Shown here piece after piece: positions 2,717 through 8,659 of a stretch of DNA of 64,000 nt. The notes beneath the pieces are model-generated. The model searched no databases, was not told the origin of the DNA, and was given only the letters and a program-made list of their open reading frames with translations. Numbering within the stretch: the stretch's first letter is position 1; the number at the start of each line of letters is the position of its first letter. The position numbers and the translations under genes are program-made. Where the stretch lies: assembly GCA_049287005.1 (NCBI GenBank), contig JBAQEZ010000003.1:95493-159492 (forward strand). Direction: 5' to 3'. The DNA comes from Candidatus Moraniibacteriota bacterium (GTDB taxonomy: Bacteria; Patescibacteriota; Minisyncoccia; Moranbacterales; UBA1568).

Positions 2717-2942
2717 TTGATTTTTTTAGTTGTTTATCTTGATATTCCCGCATATTGTACAGAAAAGCAAGTTGCCTTTTGCTTTATTTGAGTGTACTTT
2801 ATATATGAACCCACAATTGAAAAATACTGAGGTAAAGCCTTTGAGGTTTTGTCCTATCACGCTTTTTAGCGGGCGGCTCGGCGCACATGATAGGACACCT
2901 CGGTGCTTCTCGATTGTGGGTTCCGTCGGGTCGTCCACTCAA

Positions 2943-2965
2943 GTGAACATGTGAACGTAGTGAAC
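2943..2965. repeat. three tandem GTGAAC hexamers (iteron-like) in a divergent intergenic region
   Basis: caaGTGAACatGTGAACgtaGTGAACttc read directly; it lies next to a local GC-rich patch (2866-2940) inside the AT-rich island. Confidence 0.4.
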
Positions 2966-2999
2966 TTCTCGGCGACTTAAATTCATTTAGGTCGCTTTT

Positions 3000-3410
3000 A
3001 TGTTTGATAAAAAGGTAGACTACAATGCTTTAAACGCTCGACAGAAAGAGATTTACAACTTTCAAAAGGCTTCTGCTATTTTTGCTGAATTTGGATATAC
3101 GACCGTTAAGCTCTCTGATGATTGGATGGGGGCTGATTTTATCGCGATCAGTTTCGACGGATCGCAGTATCTCAGGGTTCAATTGAAGGGTCGTTTAACT
3201 TTCGATAAGAAATATCAAGGGAAGGGTATATACATTTGTTTCTATGATAAGAAAAGTGAGTGCTGGTACCTATATAATCATGATGAAATTTTGAAAAAAG
3301 TCATTAAATCAATTGAGAATAGTGATACATGGAATACAAACAAGCCGTATCACTATAAGTATCTCCAGTCAGAACACATGGAAATGTTAAGTTCGTGCAA
3401 AATTGGCTGA
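3000..3410 (+). CDS. hypothetical protein
   Basis: 136-aa ORF; a possible D...QxK nuclease-like motif (DFIAISFD...LRVQLKG) is weak. Confidence 0.45.
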   Translation: MFDKKVDYNALNARQKEIYNFQKASAIFAEFGYTTVKLSDDWMGADFIAISFDGSQYLRVQLKGRLTFDKKYQGKGIYICFYDKKSECWYLYNHDEILKKVIKSIENSDTWNTNKPYHYKYLQSEHMEMLSSCKIG

Positions 3411-3481: not shown

Positions 3482-4066
3482 ATGAGAAAATATCTGAGGA
3501 GGTTGCAAAAGAAGATAAGGGGCATGGATACCGATGCTAAGTATGTCGCTGGGGCATACTTATTTGTTTTTATGTTCGTCGGTACAGCGGGTGTGCTCGC
3601 AGCATCTGGGTGGCATCCTGAGATAGCACCTTCGACACGAGTACGACCAGCGATGATGGAAAAAATTATACCTGCGGAAACAAAGTCGCTCTTCGATGAG
3701 AAGGAAGATGTTGTCGAGAAGCAATCCGTTTCAACTAAGAAGGCTATTCAGCCGATTGAACCGAGTAATGTTACGGATGTTACCTTGAAGACAGATCAGA
3801 AAAAAGCAGACCAAATAAAGACAGATGAATTGAAGAAGCAGCTTAAGATAGCCAAGGAAATTGAGAGGCAAGCGAAAGAGAGCTTCGATGAACTCAAGAA
3901 GACATTGAGCACACCGATTGCTCCTCCGCCAGCTATTAAGCCGTTCCCTGTTGCAAAAGCGCCAGAGCCAATAAAGGTGGATCTGCCGACAACCCATTAC
4001 ACGACAACTTGTTGGGATGATTTTCTTTTGGGCAAACAATGCAAGACAACGATGAGCGTTTATTGA
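3482..4066 (+). CDS. membrane-anchored charged/coiled-coil protein, hypothetical
   Basis: The ORF track frame 3395..4066 contains an N-terminal hydrophobic anchor (YVAGAYLFVFMFVGTAGVLAASG) followed by a K/E-rich region. The likely start is ATG 3482 or 3524 (the latter preceded by AAGGGG). Confidence 0.5.
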   Translation: MRKYLRRLQKKIRGMDTDAKYVAGAYLFVFMFVGTAGVLAASGWHPEIAPSTRVRPAMMEKIIPAETKSLFDEKEDVVEKQSVSTKKAIQPIEPSNVTDVTLKTDQKKADQIKTDELKKQLKIAKEIERQAKESFDELKKTLSTPIAPPPAIKPFPVAKAPEPIKVDLPTTHYTTTCWDDFLLGKQCKTTMSVY

Positions 4067-4120
4067 TGAAATGCTTTATTTAAAACAAAATTAGTGTTTA
4101 GACTCAATTTTCTTTACGCC

Positions 4121-4150
4121 AAACCCTCTCATCTAGAGGGTTTTTTGTTT
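4121..4150 (+). terminator. rho-independent terminator
   Basis: aaaCCCTCTcatcTAGAGGGttttttg: a GC hairpin plus T-run downstream of the 4066 stop. Confidence 0.6.
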
Positions 4151-4171
4151 CTACATAATAAAGTGCCTGCA

Positions 4172-4315
4172 ATAAAAGGCTTTATCTGAAACAAAGATAG
4201 GTGTTTGCTCATACTTTTTCAATTTAGATGTCTGCTTATTGTGTAGAGACAGATTTTCTAATCAATGTATCAAAAAAGGCTTTAAATAAAGCAAATCTAT
4301 GTGTTTGCTCAAATA
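4172..4315 (+). repeat. two short copies (A 4172-4215, B 4272-4315) of the island repeat family: hairpin aaaaGGCTTTAaaTAAAGC plus ATGTGTTTGCTCA
   Basis: Direct sequence comparison; copy B is followed by a sigma70-like promoter TTGCTC-16nt-TATAAT (4305-4332). Confidence 0.6.
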
Positions 4316-4409
4316 TTTTTAAAAAGTATAATTTCAAGTGATTGATCTTTTATGCTATTGCAAGAGCCTTTCTTTTATCCCTTGGACTCACAAAACACCC
4401 CCAGTCACA

Positions 4410-4557
4410 CAGAAAGATAAAAAACATAAAGATATATGGCCGGTATGTCGAAGTGTGCTCTAGGGATGAAATGGGCTTCGGAGCCATGTTAATAATAATG
4501 TATAAACAAAAAAAGGTTTTAAATAAAGCCAATTGATATGTTTGCTTAACTTTTTAG
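4410..4557 (+). repeat. long copy C (~150 bp) of the island repeat family
   Basis: About 75% identical to 5961-6105 (cagaaaNNaaaaNcataaagatatatNgccNgta...gggatgaaat...aaaGGTTTTAaaTAAAGCCaattgatatgtttgcttaa). Confidence 0.65.
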
Positions 4558-4590
4558 ATAAAAACAAGACCGCCTTTCAGCGGTCTTGTA
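4553..4590 (-). terminator. rho-independent terminator for the XRE-ImmA operon (minus strand)
   Basis: ACAAGACCGCctttcaGCGGTCTTGT is a 10-bp stem. On the minus strand it is followed by TTTTTATCT. Confidence 0.5.
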
Positions 4591-4899
4591 ATGGAAGTGT
4601 CTTGCTATTTTCGGAGCCGTTCACATTCCTTGCAGAGAGGTTTTCCGCCATTGCCCTGACGGAGATTCTCTCGCTCGATGTTGTTCCCGGTGTTACATTC
4701 CGTATTATCATGATGTACGGACTGTTTCACTGAGTGCCACGGTGATTTACGCATATGCGTGATGTGTGGGGTTGATTAGGTGGGCGTCAGCATGATACAT
4801 TTGATATGCAATATTTTTGTATTAGCTGGCTTTTAAGAGAACGACGCCGAGTTCTTTAAGAGAGAACTCCTCAAATTTAAACGCCCAAAGAAACCGCTA

Positions 4900-5448
4900 T
4901 TACTGGCGGCTTTTTTTGACCCTCAAATCTTTCTCTATACCAAGTTCGTTCAGACGATAGCCTAAAGCTTCTCCAGAAACTTTGAAAATGGAAGTCATTC
5001 GGACTTTCCGCAGATCAATGTCTAAATTGCTGAAAGCCTCCCACTTTTCTTTAAAGACTTCTCTGGGCATAAGGAATGCTGCTGCGAATCGGTTACAGAA
5101 CCGCTCCTCCTCGTTCATTGTGTATAGATTTCCATCGAAAAAGCCGAATGCAATCCCAGAGTTACGGATGACATGACCAACTTCATGACAGAGCGTGAAA
5201 TTCTGCCTTCGCGGATAGTCGGACTCTTTGATCCAAATTCTGTACTCGTCAGTAGCGGGATCGTAATATGTGAGACCAGAGATTTTCACAAAATGTTCTC
5301 CATCACCATGTCCAATCCAGATTTTTATCCCGAATTGATCTTCAACCCATTTGACCAATTCATGTATGGATGGCATAGGAGAGCCAATACTGTGAAAGAT
5401 GGCATTTGCTGTTCTTTCTGCCTCGATGTTTATTTTTGGGTAATTCAT
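4900..5448 (-). CDS. ImmA/IrrE-family zinc metallopeptidase
   Basis: HEVGHVI (HExxH) motif; 182 aa; immediately downstream of, and co-oriented with, the XRE repressor gene, the classic prophage/ICE immunity pair. Confidence 0.8.
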   Translation of the reverse strand: MNYPKINIEAERTANAIFHSIGSPMPSIHELVKWVEDQFGIKIWIGHGDGEHFVKISGLTYYDPATDEYRIWIKESDYPRRQNFTLCHEVGHVIRNSGIAFGFFDGNLYTMNEEERFCNRFAAAFLMPREVFKEKWEAFSNLDIDLRKVRMTSIFKVSGEALGYRLNELGIEKDLRVKKSRQ

Positions 5449-5452
5449 GATG

Positions 5453-5833
5453 TTACTTTTTGAGGTGATCGATGAGGTTCTCTATGATGCGGACAGCCTC
5501 CTTATTATCCATGCCATATTGCTGTCTGAGATAGACGCTTAAGGATGGAGTTGAGGGTTGGTCGCTTATAACCTTGAGAAGGCCTAAAATCTCTTTGACT
5601 TTGACGCTGAACCCGTCAGCTAGTTTGATAAGCGTATCAAGAGAGATATTTTTTTCATCAAACTCCCCATTTTCTATCTTTGAAATGAAACTCTTGGAGA
5701 GGGAGGCTCTCTCGGCTAATTCGTCCAGTGTGAAGCCCCTGTTTTTTCGGAGTTCTGATACGATTTCGCTCAATATCATATGTAGTTTATTTAAGTACAA
5801 TGAGAGTCTATCATAGGAAACTTTTTTGTGCAA
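5453..5833 (-). CDS. XRE-family helix-turn-helix transcriptional regulator
   Basis: HTH FTLDELAERASLSKSFISKIENGE; an alternative start at Met19 (5779) is more typical. Confidence 0.8.
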   Translation of the reverse strand: MHKKVSYDRLSLYLNKLHMILSEIVSELRKNRGFTLDELAERASLSKSFISKIENGEFDEKNISLDTLIKLADGFSVKVKEILGLLKVISDQPSTPSLSVYLRQQYGMDNKEAVRIIENLIDHLKK

Positions 5834-5960
5834 GGGGCGGTGAGCAAGGTACTCATTGAAGGAAAAAACTTCGGCTCTAACTGCACCCGCCCAAATATTT
5901 TTTTAGAGAGTGTTTTTGAATGATTTCATTCCTCGGATTCACAGAATACTCTCAGTTATA

Positions 5961-6105
5961 CAGAAATCCAAAAAGCATAAAGATATATAGCCAGTACGCC
6001 GAGGTGTCCTCTGGGGATGAAATATGGATTTGTAAGCTTGTCGTGTAATAACTCACAAACAAAAGGCTTCATTTGAAGCCAATTCATATGTTTGCTTAAT
6101 TATTT
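5961..6105 (+). repeat. long copy D of the island repeat family, in the divergent XRE / DUF4238-gene regulatory region
   Basis: See copy C. The hairpin here is GCTTCAttTGAAGC, versus GCTTTAaaTAAAGC in copies A and B: compensatory changes that preserve the palindrome. Confidence 0.65.
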
Positions 6106-6187
6106 TTCATTTGATTGCGGTCGGCGATTTTTTTGTGAATTGCGTATATACTGAAAGTGTTTCTTTTTCAGGCTTTCACCAAAAATT

Positions 6188-8659
6188 ATGTCCATAACAC
6201 ATCGTAATCATTATGTCCCTGAATGGTATCAAAAACGTTTTATATTACCAGGACAAAACAAACTACATTATTTGGATCTTTGCCCAGATAAAAAAATACT
6301 TGCTGATGGAAGAATTGTAACAATGAATTCTCATTTCTTCTGGGCGCCAAGTCAGTGCTTTTACAAAGAAGATTTGTATACGACATCCCTTTTTGGAAAT
6401 GAAAATGATGAAATCGAGAAATATCTTTTTGGGAGTATAGATATAACTGGAGCTAAGGCACTCCGTGCCATTGTAAGTAATGATATACAAAAACTCCACG
6501 ATTCGTTTAGTAGCTTTTTTGAATATTTAGATGCTCAGAAATTGAGAACTCCAAAGGGATTGGGTTGGATAAATGTTAATTATCCCAGGCTTACTCAGCT
6601 TCAATTGATGCTTGAGATGCAACAAATCAGACAACTGCACTGCACTATGTGGGTTGAGGCGGTGCGCGAAATAGTTTCTGCTGAAGATTCAGAGATTAAA
6701 TTTATAATTACTGATCATCCTGTTACTATTTATAATCCCGGATGCTCTCCAGGCACAAAATATTGCACATATCCAAATGAACCGTCTATAGCCCTAAAAG
6801 GAACACAGACCGTTTTCCCGCTGGATCTAAACCATTGTTTGATTTTAACCAATCTAGAATATGCGCAGGAGCCATTTTTAAAAGATTTACTTTCTAATAG
6901 GACAAATGCGCGGAATTTTGGACAAACAACTTCTCGTATTGATAATTGGATTAGAACCAGAAAGCTCAAGGATTTAGAGGTTAAAAAAATCAATTATATC
7001 TTAAAGTCACGAGCATCTAAGCATATCGCTGCTTCCAAGAAAGAGTGGCTTTATCCTGAAAAGGATATTAAAGAAACTTGGCAAAAAATAGGGCAAGTAC
7101 TTTTACCTCCAAAAAATGAGTTACACCATTTTGGAGGTGAGATGTACATGGGATACAAAGACGGAACAGTTCATTATCAGGATGCATTTGGGCGTACTAC
7201 TGGAGATACGTCGTATTTAAAAAAGCCAATCCCGAAAGGTAAAATTGGTAATAATGACCCGTGCGTTTGTGGAAGCGGAAGGAAATATAAAAAATGTTGT
7301 TTAGGAAAGAAGCCTGAAGATATGCCGGATACTACCGAGTACAGTATTCGAGAAAGAAATATTATATTCTCAAAAATTCTAGAAGACATACTGGGTCTAT
7401 CTAAAGGAAAAACCTGGGAAGATGTTCGAAAAGAATTAAGTGATGAGCAAGTAAAAAAAATCTACGAAGCTTTTCAGGGTTTATGGCCTAAAGATACAAA
7501 TATTATTAATTTATTGCCACACCCAGATGAAAGAATATCGAGAGCGCTGTATGCTGGTTTAATAGATCCTAGAACTGCAGCGAGAGATATAATCAGCTAT
7601 ACGCCCTATTTCGACGAAATTCTGGTCATAAATCCCTTTATGAATCCCGCCTATATAAGCCCGGAGTACAATCCGATAAATTTTCCGGGTCAATATAAAC
7701 AAGAGGTGTTAAAAAATGTTTTATTTTTCTTACAGCTGATGCCTTTTATAGAAATAGGCGCTGTGAATATAATTCCTGATCCCTGTTCTACTAATTATCG
7801 ATTACAAAGACAGATCTGGGATTTGGCGGAGTCACGTCATAAAAGATATAAATTAGAAGGATTTGACTTTGACCTCGAATCTGACGAGTCAATAAAAAAA
7901 ATATTTGAAGATGATTTTAAAAGGGGGATGACTGGTTTTTCTGACGAACATCTAATACAAAGCATAAAAAAAAGATTGCCAAAGCTACCTGATAGAGAAT
8001 TAGGAGAATTATTGGATTATATAAAAAAAGAGCGATTGAAAGACCCCTTGGCATTACTTCAGCCCATGGAAGACAATGAAAAAAGTGGACAGATGACTGC
8101 TACTCATGTAACCCCAAATCTTGAGCTTGGTTTCTTTATTGCGCAGCTTACGGGCTCGTTTATTTATACAGATAGTAAAGTGAGATGGCAAGAAATAACA
8201 AGATCAACTAAAGCCAGTGAGGATGAGAATAAAATGCCTTGGGAGTTTTTAGCAAAAACAATTAATGATATTGATTTCAATCTTGAAATTGACCCTTTAT
8301 TTAATTTTAAAATAAGAAAAACTGGGAAATTAGGATTAATAAGGGGTGCTGTAAGAAGATTGTGCACTACAATAAAAAATGAGCAAGATGCTCCTAAAAT
8401 TAAAATTTTAAACAAATCCTTATCTGACGAAATTATATTAGCGCACCAGAAGTCAGAAAAAGAGTTAGAAGCAATCAGGAAAGACAATGAGAAGCAGAAG
8501 GATGAAATTAGCTTTACATTTAAAAGTAAGATGACCTGTTTGATTTCTGTGGATGACTTTTTTTCATTAATACCAGTTCAAAGACTTGTTTTATCGTATG
8601 GGGCGAAACCTCAAAAAATAGTGCCAATAGCTGTATTCATTGAACATAATGATTGCTAG
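6188..8659 (+). CDS. large DUF4238-like protein with SEC-C metal-binding motif and ~450-aa C-terminal extension (candidate phage-defence/abortive-infection protein)
   Basis: N-terminus HRNHYVPEWYQKRFILPG resembles the DUF4238 start (HYVPxFYLxxF; family recall from memory). CVCGSGRKYKKCC matches the SEC-C motif exactly. 823 aa, inside an AT-rich island next to the ImmA/XRE pair. Confidence 0.55.
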   Translation: MSITHRNHYVPEWYQKRFILPGQNKLHYLDLCPDKKILADGRIVTMNSHFFWAPSQCFYKEDLYTTSLFGNENDEIEKYLFGSIDITGAKALRAIVSNDIQKLHDSFSSFFEYLDAQKLRTPKGLGWINVNYPRLTQLQLMLEMQQIRQLHCTMWVEAVREIVSAEDSEIKFIITDHPVTIYNPGCSPGTKYCTYPNEPSIALKGTQTVFPLDLNHCLILTNLEYAQEPFLKDLLSNRTNARNFGQTTSRIDNWIRTRKLKDLEVKKINYILKSRASKHIAASKKEWLYPEKDIKETWQKIGQVLLPPKNELHHFGGEMYMGYKDGTVHYQDAFGRTTGDTSYLKKPIPKGKIGNNDPCVCGSGRKYKKCCLGKKPEDMPDTTEYSIRERNIIFSKILEDILGLSKGKTWEDVRKELSDEQVKKIYEAFQGLWPKDTNIINLLPHPDERISRALYAGLIDPRTAARDIISYTPYFDEILVINPFMNPAYISPEYNPINFPGQYKQEVLKNVLFFLQLMPFIEIGAVNIIPDPCSTNYRLQRQIWDLAESRHKRYKLEGFDFDLESDESIKKIFEDDFKRGMTGFSDEHLIQSIKKRLPKLPDRELGELLDYIKKERLKDPLALLQPMEDNEKSGQMTATHVTPNLELGFFIAQLTGSFIYTDSKVRWQEITRSTKASEDENKMPWEFLAKTINDIDFNLEIDPLFNFKIRKTGKLGLIRGAVRRLCTTIKNEQDAPKIKILNKSLSDEIILAHQKSEKELEAIRKDNEKQKDEISFTFKSKMTCLISVDDFFSLIPVQRLVLSYGAKPQKIVPIAVFIEHNDC

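What the first reader, a model, noticed from the sequence alone, without database searches (positions are those of the whole stretch)
4150..6115. A ~150-bp repeat family with a covarying palindromic hairpin surrounds the ImmA/XRE immunity module
Long copies at 4410-4557 and 5961-6105 (~75% identity) flank the XRE-ImmA operon. Shorter copies at 4172-4215 and 4272-4315 retain the 3' module: a hairpin followed by ATGTGTTTGCT(C/T)AA.

The hairpin is GCTTTAaaTAAAGC in two copies, GGTTTTAaaTAAAGCC (one G.U-compatible change) in a third, and GCTTCAttTGAAGC in the fourth. These compensatory double substitutions preserve the palindrome, so there is selection on structure or on a dimeric binding site.

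Copy B is followed by a clean TTGCTC-16-TATAAT promoter. Copy D sits in the divergent XRE / DUF4238 promoter region.

The likeliest interpretation is that these are operator/promoter units of the XRE repressor, or small structured RNAs, controlling the island lysis-lysogeny-like switch.
Basis: seen in the sequence. Interest (0 to 1): 0.55.

Follow-up and report, generated by a model that had tools for sequence, protein, structure and literature searches.

The report
Cargo-junction DNA repeats in CPR island
The repeats are real, but they are not operators of the neighbouring XRE repressor and not a covarying RNA hairpin: they are a conserved non-coding element, of unknown exact role, that marks where the conserved backbone of a family of small integrative defence islands of candidate-phyla-radiation (CPR) bacteria meets their variable cargo genes.

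Summary
The repeat family exists and is larger than described. There are five ~45-60 bp modules: A-tract, GCTTTA-nn-TAAAGC palindrome, GTTTGCTYAA box, T-tract. There are two ~180 bp long units (4373-4552, 5924-6102; 79% identical).

The host is a Candidatus Moraniibacteriota (CPR) MAG. The same element recurs at the same position in at least six related islands with a serine recombinase. It lies after the terminator of the rightward backbone operon and before variable, mostly defence-like cargo. Most of these islands have no XRE/ImmA nearby.

Across 17 modules the palindrome pairs no better than shuffled controls. Ten 5' blocks give no consensus structure. The same tests find strong covariation in a neighbouring leader RNA. 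There is no Rfam match and no match in the phage, plasmid or E. coli collections. Only copy B has a sigma-70-like promoter.

Best reading (about 0.4): a DNA-level array of protein-binding sites that forms the regulatory and exchange platform of the cargo hotspot. The closest analogue is the PeSL promoter/stem-loop cassette of T4-type phages.

The XRE-ImmA pair is CapH/CapP-like cargo, not an island immunity switch.

Unplanned find: a strongly covarying, unclassified leader RNA at 2808-2995.

The parts
4057..4121 (+). Module A0 (degenerate): palindrome GCTTTATTTAAAAC at 4073-4086, box GTGTTTAGACTCAA at 4094-4107. It overlaps the stop codon of the 223-aa gene.
   Evidence: nhmmer hits; sequence; coordinates.
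4121..4143 (+). Intrinsic terminator of the rightward backbone operon (136-aa and 223-aa genes).
   Evidence: Terminator scan.
4162..4224 (+). Module A: palindrome GCTTTATCTGAAAC at 4179-4192, box GTGTTTGCTCAT, then a T-tract.
4263..4332 (+). Module B: palindrome 4279-4292 and box GTTTGCTCAA at 4303-4312. It is the only module with a good sigma-70-like promoter: TTGCTC 4305-4310, 16 nt, TATAAT 4327-4332.
4373..4552 (+). Long unit C. The 5' block (4373-4472) has conserved boxes TTTTATCCCTTGG, CATAAAGATATAT and AGGGATGAAAT. Module C has palindrome 4515-4530 and box 4540-4549.
4564..4589 (-). Strong intrinsic terminator ending the leftward ORF49-ImmA-XRE cargo operon.
4605..5779 (-). Cargo cassette enclosed by units C and D: 49-aa Cys-rich ORF (4605-4754), ImmA/CapP-like M78 peptidase (4900-5448), XRE/CapH-like HTH (5453-5779).
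   Evidence: Pfam; PADLOC; gene calls of L001.
5889..5925 (+). Eroded tail of a B-type module upstream of unit D. It aligns with 4307-4343 at 70% identity.
   Evidence: family D3.
5924..6102 (+). Long unit D. The 5' block is 5924-6023. Module D has palindrome GGCTTCATTTGAAGCC at 6065-6080 and box 6090-6099. It ends 85 nt upstream of the DUF4238/SEC-C gene.
6188..8659 (+). First co-directional cargo gene after unit D (DUF4238 plus SEC-C motif, 823 aa).

Best explanation
The repeats are a conserved cis-acting DNA element of a family of about 10-12 kb integrative islands of CPR bacteria. The backbone is a large serine recombinase, in some islands a primase and helicase, a 295-aa family protein, a structured leader RNA and a short rightward operon.

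The element sits exactly where the conserved backbone ends and the variable, mostly defence-type cargo begins. It has two parts:
- a ~100-bp block that starts right after the terminator of the backbone operon;
- one to five modules, each an A-tract, a 14-16 bp palindrome (GCTTTA-nn-TAAAGC), an 8-9 bp spacer, the box GTTTGCTYAA and a T-tract.

Inferred mechanism (not shown): a conserved sequence-specific protein, encoded by the island or the host, binds as a dimer to each palindrome, with the adjacent box giving polarity. The resulting array forms the upstream regulatory platform for whatever cargo lies downstream. Some modules also supply a promoter, as B does here.

Because it is the only conserved sequence next to the cargo, it also serves as the homology patch through which cargo cassettes are duplicated and exchanged. 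That would explain why units C and D now bracket the XRE-ImmA cassette.

Shown: the anatomy, the position, conservation across islands, the absence of RNA-structure signal, and independence from XRE.
Inferred: protein binding, regulatory effect, role in exchange.
For: Position.
- In L003, L048, L051, L063 (two units), L065 and L066 the 5' block begins directly after an intrinsic terminator and is followed by variable genes.
- Seven of ten units are followed by a co-directional cargo gene. The cargo includes Ppl-like, PHP/AAA_21, DUF5655, DUF4238 and RE_NgoBV genes.

Conservation.
- The unit stays alignable at DNA level (mean column identity 61-73%) between islands whose 295-aa proteins are only 36-48% identical.
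- The half-sites and the box are nearly invariant, while the centre of the palindrome is free.
- Module subtypes are shared between islands: wB with L3_2 at 81%, L42_1 with L3_4 at 78%. So the array is old and maintained.

DNA level rather than RNA level.
- There is no covariation above shuffles and no consensus fold.
- Folding z-scores are near 0.
- Wobble pairs show no strand preference (4 against 9).
- The same tests give 0/500 shuffles for the neighbouring leader RNA, which acts as a positive control.

Not a generic repeat.
- There are five copies in the 64 kb window, all within 4057-6112.
- One genome out of 185,579 species matched the strict motif.

Exchange role.
- The duplicated segment runs from the box of B to the box of C (4307-4552, matching 5889-6102).
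- L063 likewise has two units bracketing a single 103-aa gene.

Precedent: PeSL cassettes (PMC2839356, PMC4122927).
Against: - No binding protein is identified. The 295-aa family protein co-occurs with modules in six of six module-bearing islands and is absent from the two module-less islands L065 and L066. However, other islands that encode it lack modules, and its model was too poor to interpret (pLDDT 52).
- Only module B has a sigma-70-like -35/-10 pair. In other islands the best promoter-like sites lie downstream of the modules, near the gene start.
- Two of ten units face convergent operons, and one lies near the island end.
- Module spacing is irregular (46-237 bp).
- An A-tract always on one side of the palindrome is more typical of a terminator than of an operator.
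- A role as unstructured RNA cannot be excluded from sequence alone.
Confidence: 0.4

Rival explanations
1. The modules are site-specific recombination sites of a cassette system, analogous to integron attI/attC. A recombinase, for example the island's serine recombinase, crosses over in or beside the palindrome or box. Genes bracketed by modules would then be excisable and insertable cassettes.
For: - Units and modules bracket single cassettes in the window (XRE-ImmA-ORF49) and in L063 (103-aa gene).
- The duplication end points coincide with the box.
- The palindrome has a variable central dinucleotide, as serine-recombinase crossover sites do.
- Conservation stops within about 10 nt after the box.
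Against: - No cassette circles or empty sites have been observed.
- The palindrome is short (6-2-6).
- The central dinucleotides of C (AA) and D (TT) differ.
- The module subtypes occur in the same order (box tails CTCAAATAAATT, then CTTAATT, then CTCATGTTTTTT) in L003 and L051 (sequences; order read by eye). This suggests a stable array rather than a shuffled one.
- No dedicated recombinase lies next to the array.
Confidence: 0.15
2. The element is a cis site for DNA replication, packaging or transfer of the excised island. The AT-rich 5' block flanked by inverted repeats would be the unwinding or nicking region. The modules would be iterons or terminase/translocase binding sites, comparable to P4 ori/crr or lambda cosN/cosB.
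For: - Some islands carry a primase (Zn-ribbon DnaG) and an AAA_25 helicase.
- The 5' block has an ~11-bp inverted repeat (TYATYCC ... GGGATGA) around an A/T-rich ATATAT core.
- The modules are direct repeats with A-tracts.
- High conservation between islands would fit a shared host or helper-phage factor.
- From my own knowledge: P4 crr is a pair of 120-bp direct repeats carrying iterons.
Against: - The element is kept unchanged in islands without the primase/helicase module (L003, L048).
- Module spacing is irregular and not helically phased.
- Two full units in direct repeat (window, L063) are awkward for an origin or cos site.
- Block 1 is not a DnaA box in most islands.
- No terminase, relaxase or Rep gene was recognised.
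Confidence: 0.13
3. The modules are minus-strand intrinsic terminators. They act as insulators that shield the backbone operon from leftward transcription coming out of the cargo.
For: - On the minus strand each of the 17 palindromes is followed by a run of T residues, usually 4-7, within a base or two. The exception is A0, where the run is broken: ATTTCATC.
- D was flagged as terminator-like on the minus strand.
- Mismatches are slightly more wobble-compatible on the minus strand (9 against 4).
- In the window and in L051 the array does face a convergent cargo operon.
Against: - The stems are 5-6 bp and AU-rich. On the minus strand the hairpin is absent from the minimum-free-energy fold of A, B and C.
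- Seven of ten units have no leftward gene to terminate.
- The conserved primary sequence of the stem and of the GTTTGCTYAA box 8-9 nt away is not explained by terminator function.
- The strand bias is not significant.
Confidence: 0.12
4. The modules or long units act as plus-strand RNA. They would be a structured small RNA or 5' leader (hairpin plus a single-stranded box, like nut or boxB-boxA sites) controlling cargo expression.
For: - Between C and D alone, RNAalifold finds a long stem with 3-4 compensatory pairs and G-U pairs that favour the plus strand.
- The hairpin-then-box order resembles the boxB-boxA order of rrn leaders (my own knowledge).
- Promoter B would transcribe unit C.
Against: - The C/D stem does not hold with 6-10 homologues: 74% paired against 72% in shuffles, and 0 predicted pairs.
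- Hairpin covariation equals the shuffles.
- An alternative hairpin is not supported.
- z-scores are near 0.
- No Rfam family matches.
- Most units start directly after a terminator with no promoter upstream.
Confidence: 0.08
5. One reading: the palindromes are operators of the adjacent XRE repressor, cleaved by ImmA, and they control an island immunity switch.
For: - Copy D lies in the 408-bp region between the divergent XRE and DUF4238 genes.
- A 6-2-6 palindrome is a typical HTH-dimer site.
- CapH-type repressors bind such intergenic regions (my own knowledge of the CapH/CapP literature).
Against: - The same element occurs in L003, L042-45, L048 and L063, where the DNA held shows no XRE/ImmA pair.
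- In L051 the HTH/M78 pair has no module at its promoter.
- Copies A0, A, B and C are not at any XRE-controlled promoter.
- The XRE promoter region (5780-5888) has no GCTTTA palindrome.
- XRE-ImmA is variable cargo, whereas the element belongs to the backbone junction.
Confidence: 0.05

Closest known systems
PeSL (promoter-early / stem-loop) cassettes in the hyperplastic regions of T4-type phages (Arbiol et al. 2010, PMC2839356; Comeau et al. 2014, PMC4122927)
   Same: - Both are short composite non-coding motifs repeated in direct orientation between variable, non-essential genes of a mobile genome.
- The order of parts is the same: stem-loop, A/T-rich stretch, -35-like box.
- Both flank single-gene cassettes.
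- Both are conserved enough to act as homology patches for gain, loss and exchange of genes.
   Different: - PeSLs carry consensus sigma-70 promoters and G/C-rich stem-loops shown to terminate transcription. Here only 1 of 17 modules has a good promoter.
- The stems here are weak and A/T-rich, with a conserved sequence.
- An extra ~100-bp block is present here.
- The host element is an integrative island of CPR bacteria, not a lytic phage.
- No recombination products have been observed.
Integron attI/attC cassette boundaries
   Same: - Both are conserved imperfect palindromes at the junction between a conserved platform and variable cassettes.
- In both, the repeats bracket the cassettes.
   Different: - There is no IntI-type tyrosine recombinase here.
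- There are no R''/L''/L'/R' boxes or GTTRRRY core.
- Cargo genes occur in both orientations and have their own regulators.
- Module order is conserved between islands.
Operator arrays of HTH repressors (lambda OR/OL, ICEBs1 ImmR sites, CapH sites upstream of CBASS)
   Same: - Both show a 6-2-6 dyad with conserved half-sites and a free centre.
- Both have several copies per locus, in intergenic DNA.
   Different: - The copies here are 46-237 bp apart rather than adjacent.
- They are all in one orientation, with an asymmetric box and A/T-tracts.
- They do not co-occur with the XRE/ImmA pair.
Iteron origins and P4 ori/crr
   Same: - Both have direct repeats plus an A/T-rich block in an element that, in some members, encodes a primase and helicase.
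- Two long direct repeats recall P4 crr.
   Different: - Spacing is irregular here.
- The element is retained in islands that lack the replication genes.
- No Rep protein was identified.
MITE/REP-type dispersed repeats
   Same: Both are short non-coding repeats with a palindrome. The 5' block has ~11-bp inverted ends.
   Different: - The repeats here are not dispersed. All five copies in 64 kb lie at one locus.
- The position is syntenic in related islands.
- One genome in 185,579 species matched the motif.

Membership tests
XRE/ImmR-type operator of the adjacent repressor | The site co-occurs with the repressor gene in related loci. | tested here: not met
   The element is present in L003, L042-45, L048 and L063, where the DNA held shows no XRE/M78 pair.
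XRE/ImmR-type operator of the adjacent repressor | The site overlaps the promoter(s) the repressor controls, including its own. | tested here: not met
   The predicted XRE promoter at 5833-5805 (minus strand) has no GCTTTA dyad. A0, A, B and C are far from it. In L051 the HTH/M78 promoter region has no module.
XRE/ImmR-type operator of the adjacent repressor | The repressor binds the site specifically. | not testable with these tools
   This needs an EMSA or footprint.
Structured RNA (small RNA or cis-regulatory hairpin) | Base pairs are supported by covariation above background. | tested here: not met
   - Hairpin: 81.7% paired against 81.6% in shuffles.
- 5' stem: 74.4% against 71.6%, reached by 54/500 shuffles.
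- RNAalifold predicts 0 pairs for 10 units.
- Positive control, leader RNA: 0/500 shuffles.
Structured RNA (small RNA or cis-regulatory hairpin) | The RNA folds more stably than shuffled sequence. | tested here: not met
   z is between -0.9 and +0.7 for all copies except D, where z = -2.7.
Structured RNA (small RNA or cis-regulatory hairpin) | The sequence matches a curated RNA family. | tested here: not met
   Rfam 15 gave only tRNAs at gathering score. In the region itself nothing reached its gathering score.
PeSL-like promoter/terminator cassette | Each copy contains a sigma-70 consensus promoter. | tested here: not met
   Only module B qualifies (TTGCTC-16-TATAAT). The other modules lack a -10 at 16-18 nt. 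Host promoters in the window are canonical TTGACR-17-TAnAnT.
PeSL-like promoter/terminator cassette | Each copy has a stem-loop able to terminate upstream transcription. | tested here: inconclusive
   The palindrome has no U-tract on the plus strand. Separate, non-conserved terminators precede most units. On the minus strand there is a hairpin plus T-tract, but the stems are weak.
PeSL-like promoter/terminator cassette | Copies are repeated between variable genes and flank cassettes. | tested here: met
   Window: C and D flank XRE-ImmA-ORF49. L063: two units flank a 103-aa gene. Cargo differs in every island.
PeSL-like promoter/terminator cassette | Recombination between copies has been demonstrated (mini-circles, chimeric copies). 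| not testable with these tools
   This needs inverse PCR or long reads.
Intrinsic terminator (minus strand) | A G/C-rich stem of at least 5 bp is followed at once by a U-tract. | tested here: inconclusive
   A T-tract follows the palindrome on the minus strand in the modules; it is broken in A0. Only D passes the terminator scan. On the minus strand the hairpin is absent from the minimum-free-energy fold of A, B and C.
MITE / dispersed repeat | There are many copies scattered over the genome at unrelated sites. | tested here: not met
   There are five copies in 64 kb, all within 4057-6112. One match was found in 185,579 species genomes. The position is syntenic in related islands.
Iteron-type origin | Repeats are regularly spaced and co-occur with a cognate initiator. 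| tested here: not met
   Spacing is 46-237 bp. The element is retained in islands without a primase/helicase.

The most novel reading that the evidence does not exclude
The long unit and its modules are the docking and crossover site of a previously undescribed cassette-exchange system. In this reading, small serine-recombinase islands of CPR bacteria acquire, duplicate and swap defence genes at a dedicated non-coding platform. The platform would be functionally analogous to an integron attI/attC array or to PeSLs, but with unrelated sequence and enzymes, and it would couple the captured genes to island-controlled expression.
Probability: 0.15. Interest if true: 0.75.

Novelty: new variant of a known kind. 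Interest (0 to 1): 0.45.

Why it matters
CPR (Patescibacteria) bacteria have tiny genomes, and their mobile elements and gene regulation are almost unexplored. This work defines a family of small integrative islands that carry changing sets of defence-type genes (Ppl-like, restriction-modification, TIR, SAVED, E1/E2, and a DUF4238 gene regulated by a CapH/CapP-like pair) behind one conserved non-coding platform.

If the platform is what regulates or captures the cargo, it would give three things:
- a handle for finding new defence genes in uncultured bacteria, by looking downstream of the motif;
- a candidate portable expression or landing site;
- a second, independent example of regulatory cassettes as engines of modular exchange.

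The result also removes a tempting but wrong annotation, an XRE operator or covarying RNA hairpin.

Tried and rejected
- Rfam, at gathering and E-value thresholds: nothing in the region.
- BLAST against E. coli genomes, plasmids and phages: no match.
- Pattern scans of viral contigs:
  - The 5'-block pattern gave one match, which lies inside an ORF.
  - The module pattern gave none.
  - The leader-RNA motif gave 13 short matches that do not extend to the RNA and are compatible with chance.
- Protein-anchored scan of viral contigs: none.
- The 38 metagenome loci with 295-aa homologues contain no modules and no obvious analogous repeats.
- Coding potential of the long units: read by eye, the open frames differ between C, D and L003, so the units are not coding.
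- Alternative hairpin AAGCAA/TTGCTT plus T-run (attenuator idea): 68% paired, no covariation.
- The C/D long stem looked promising but failed with more homologues.
- Sigma-54 and DnaA-box readings of the conserved boxes were checked by eye and do not fit.
- AlphaFold model of the 295-aa protein: pLDDT 52, unusable, so no fold search was run. A PDB profile search gave nothing. PHROGs gave nothing for the backbone proteins.
- One contig look-up went on a chromosomal homologue of the 136-aa protein in unrelated bacteria, and one on a protein not on record.
Full report

Yes, with corrections. The repeat finder reports a four-copy, 67-nt direct-repeat family at 4159-4225, 4259-4325, 4496-4562 and 6046-6112. 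It also reports a second pair, 4373-4472 with 5924-6023, at 79% identity.

A pairwise alignment shows that the long copies run from 4373 to 4552 and from 5924 to 6102. A weaker upstream stretch aligns 4307-4343 with 5889-5925. Profile searches add a fifth, degenerate module (A0, about 4057-4121) that overlaps the stop codon of the upstream gene.

Each module reads: A-tract, palindrome GCTTTA-nn-TAAAGC (often with an extra G/C pair), 8-9 nt, box GTTTGCTYAA, T-tract. The promoter after B is there: TTGCTC 4305-4310, 16 nt, TATAAT 4327-4332.

One detail is wrong. Copy A is GCTTTATCTGAAAC, not a second GCTTTAaaTAAAGC. No other copy exists in the 64 kb window.

**2. Where are we?**

The 295-aa protein at 1829-2716 is identical to a protein of a Candidatus Moraniibacteriota MAG, so the host is a CPR bacterium. 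Bases 1 to about 10,000 have 36-43% G+C, against about 50% for the rest of the window.

Related loci were fetched through two backbone proteins. They define a family of small integrative islands:
- a large serine recombinase;
- in some islands a Zn-ribbon primase and an AAA_25 helicase;
- a 295-aa family protein, all of these reading leftward;
- a conserved intergenic element;
- a rightward operon starting with a 136-aa protein;
- then variable cargo.

The cargo differs in every island and is mostly defence-like. It includes a Ppl-like PHP/ATPase, restriction-modification genes, LexA-like regulators, HNH-SAVED, a ThsB-like TIR protein, a ThiF/E2 set and DUF5655. In the window it is an XRE/ImmA pair beside a DUF4238/SEC-C gene.

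**3. The element belongs to the backbone/cargo junction, not to XRE.**

A strict motif scan of one genome for each of 185,579 species gave a single hit, L003. L003 turned out to be a related island. It has one long unit and three further tandem modules just upstream of a Ppl-like gene.

Profiles then found the element in:
- L042-45: two modules, then a long unit whose own module is degenerate, then DUF5655;
- L048/49: a module, a terminator, the 5' block, then a PHP/AAA_21 gene;
- L051/52: a terminator, a long unit, two modules, then a convergent ThiF/E2 operon;
- L063/64: two long units bracketing a 103-aa gene;
- L065 and L066: a reduced form.

In seven cases the 5' block starts directly after an intrinsic terminator. 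Seven of ten units are followed by a co-directional cargo gene, two by a convergent operon and one by the island end.

No XRE/ImmA pair is seen in the DNA held for L003, L042-45, L048 or L063. In L051 an HTH/M78 pair lies 2.6 kb away with no module at its promoter.

In the window, XRE and ImmA score as CapH and CapP. They sit in the cargo, divergent from the DUF4238 gene. So they look like regulators of a defence gene rather than an island immunity switch.

The XRE gene's own likely promoter is TTGCAC-17-TAGACT on the minus strand at 5833-5805. It lies outside copy D and carries a different small palindrome (read by eye). Host tRNA promoters show that this organism uses canonical TTGACR-17-TAnAnT promoters.

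**4. Is it an RNA?**

The evidence says no.
- Rfam has nothing.
- With C and D alone, RNAalifold draws a long stem with compensatory pairs. With six homologues the stem is 74% paired against 72% in shuffles. With ten, RNAalifold predicts no pair at all.
- For the palindrome, 17 distinct modules give 81.7% paired against 81.6% in shuffles (the 9-copy version is).
- Compensated changes occur in D and L63_1. They are balanced by uncompensated ones in L3_3, A, A0 and L48_1.
- Wobble-compatible changes show no significant strand preference: 4 on the plus strand against 9 on the minus strand.
- Folding energies equal those of shuffled sequence, except for D. In A and B the hairpin is not the minimum-free-energy structure; in C it appears only weakly, in the plus-strand centroid.
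- An alternative hairpin (AAGCAA/TTGCTT plus T-run) is also unsupported.

The method is not blind. The conserved intergenic element of the same islands (window 2808-2995) gives 91% paired against 78%, 16 pairs with double changes, and 0/500 shuffles.

**5. What it most likely is.**

The half-sites and the box are conserved as sequence, with a free central dinucleotide. This holds in islands whose proteins have diverged to 36-48% identity. Module subtypes are shared across islands, so the array is old and maintained.

This points to sequence-specific recognition of double-stranded DNA by a conserved factor. Because the element follows a terminator and precedes the cargo, the simplest role is an upstream regulatory platform for the cargo. 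Occasional modules act as promoters, as B does.

However, a sigma-70-like -35/-10 pair is absent from the other modules. The best promoter-like sites elsewhere lie downstream, close to the gene.

The element is also the only conserved DNA next to the cargo. The C/D duplication runs from box to box. It therefore very probably serves as the homology patch for cargo duplication and exchange.

The closest described analogue is the PeSL promoter/stem-loop cassette of T4-type phages (PMC2839356, PMC4122927). It is not a member of that class: the consensus promoter is missing and termination is unproven.

**6. Rivals.**

These are weighed in the structured fields:
- a true site-specific cassette system (0.15);
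- a replication, packaging or transfer site (0.13);
- minus-strand terminators acting as insulators (0.12);
- a plus-strand RNA (0.08);
- XRE operators (0.05).

The binding factor is unknown. The 295-aa family protein co-occurs with modules in all six module-bearing islands and is missing from the two module-less ones. But it also occurs in islands without modules, and its AlphaFold model was too poor to use.

**7. Verdict.**

The repeat is real and conserved. The covarying-hairpin claim and the XRE-operator claim are not supported. The function is still inferred, not shown.

It is a new variant of a known kind: a conserved regulatory and exchange cassette at the edge of a variable region, here in an unexplored setting (CPR defence islands). 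Interest is moderate (0.45). The neighbouring leader RNA may be the more clear-cut discovery.

Noticed in passing
window 2772-2998 (+ strand); also L003 3226-3520, L042 1733-1479 (-), L047, L048, L008, L021/22, L051, L063, L065, L066: - A conserved, strongly covarying structured leader RNA lies between the 295-aa and 136-aa genes.
- Its parts are: promoter TTGCCT (2772-2777), 17 nt, TACTTT (2795-2800); long-range helix 2808-2819 with 2911-2922; inner helix 2851-2859 with 2888-2896; conserved loops AGCGGGCGRC and CCGUCGGGUCGUCCACUCAAG, which may form a pseudoknot; and an intrinsic terminator at 2971-2995 whose U-run overlaps the ATG at 3000.
- Across 12 sequences it is 91% paired against 78% in shuffles, with 16 pairs changed on both sides and 0/500 shuffles.
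- There is no Rfam match even at E<=5.
- It looks like an unclassified riboswitch-like or attenuator leader.
   Followed up: partly
window 4900-8659: The XRE (5453-5779) and M78 peptidase (4900-5448) score as CapH/CapP (E = 1e-12 and 4e-18). They are divergent from an 823-aa DUF4238 plus SEC-C protein (6188-8659). That protein matches no known defence family except through its SEC-C motif. It is a candidate DNA-damage-controlled defence gene.
   Followed up: partly
window 1-~10000 and loci L042-L066: This is a family of ~10-12 kb integrative islands in CPR bacteria (Moranbacteria/Parcubacteria). The backbone is a large serine recombinase, in some islands a primase/helicase, a 295-aa protein with no known fold, and a 136-aa protein. 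Behind it sits a cargo hotspot holding restriction-modification, TIR, SAVED, Ppl-like and E1/E2 genes. Protein-anchored and module-pattern scans found no relative in IMG/VR.
   Followed up: partly
window 4605-4754 (-): A 49-aa Cys-rich ORF (MRKSPWHSVKQSVHHDNTECNTGNNIERENLRQGNGGKPLCKECERLRK) ends the XRE-ImmA operon and is followed by a strong terminator at 4589-4564. It has no Pfam, PHROG or PADLOC hit.
   Followed up: no
window 4305-4600: If the promoter of module B is active, it would read through unit C and then run antisense into the convergent ORF49-ImmA-XRE operon. The hairpin at 4564-4589 has a T-run only on the minus strand.
   Followed up: no
window 3000-3410; loci L053-L062: The 136-aa backbone protein belongs to a large family (306 hits). 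The family also has chromosomal members in unrelated bacteria, in a fixed housekeeping context (UbiA, the 135-aa gene, an MBL-fold hydrolase), and there without the leader RNA.
   Followed up: no
L050 7210-7285 (-): An island of the family without modules has, at the equivalent place, an ordinary bidirectional terminator AAAAAGGCTTTAACAGCCTTTTTTGTTTGAAA. Its stem and following bases resemble a collapsed module. This hints that the modules may have arisen from a terminator.
   Followed up: no
window 6111-6187: Between unit D and the DUF4238 start there are a direct repeat ATTGCG (6113-6118 and 6139-6144) and a small dyad CTGAAAG...TTTTCAG (about 6153-6172). These are better-placed candidates for the CapH-like repressor's operator than the module palindrome (read by eye).
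   Followed up: no
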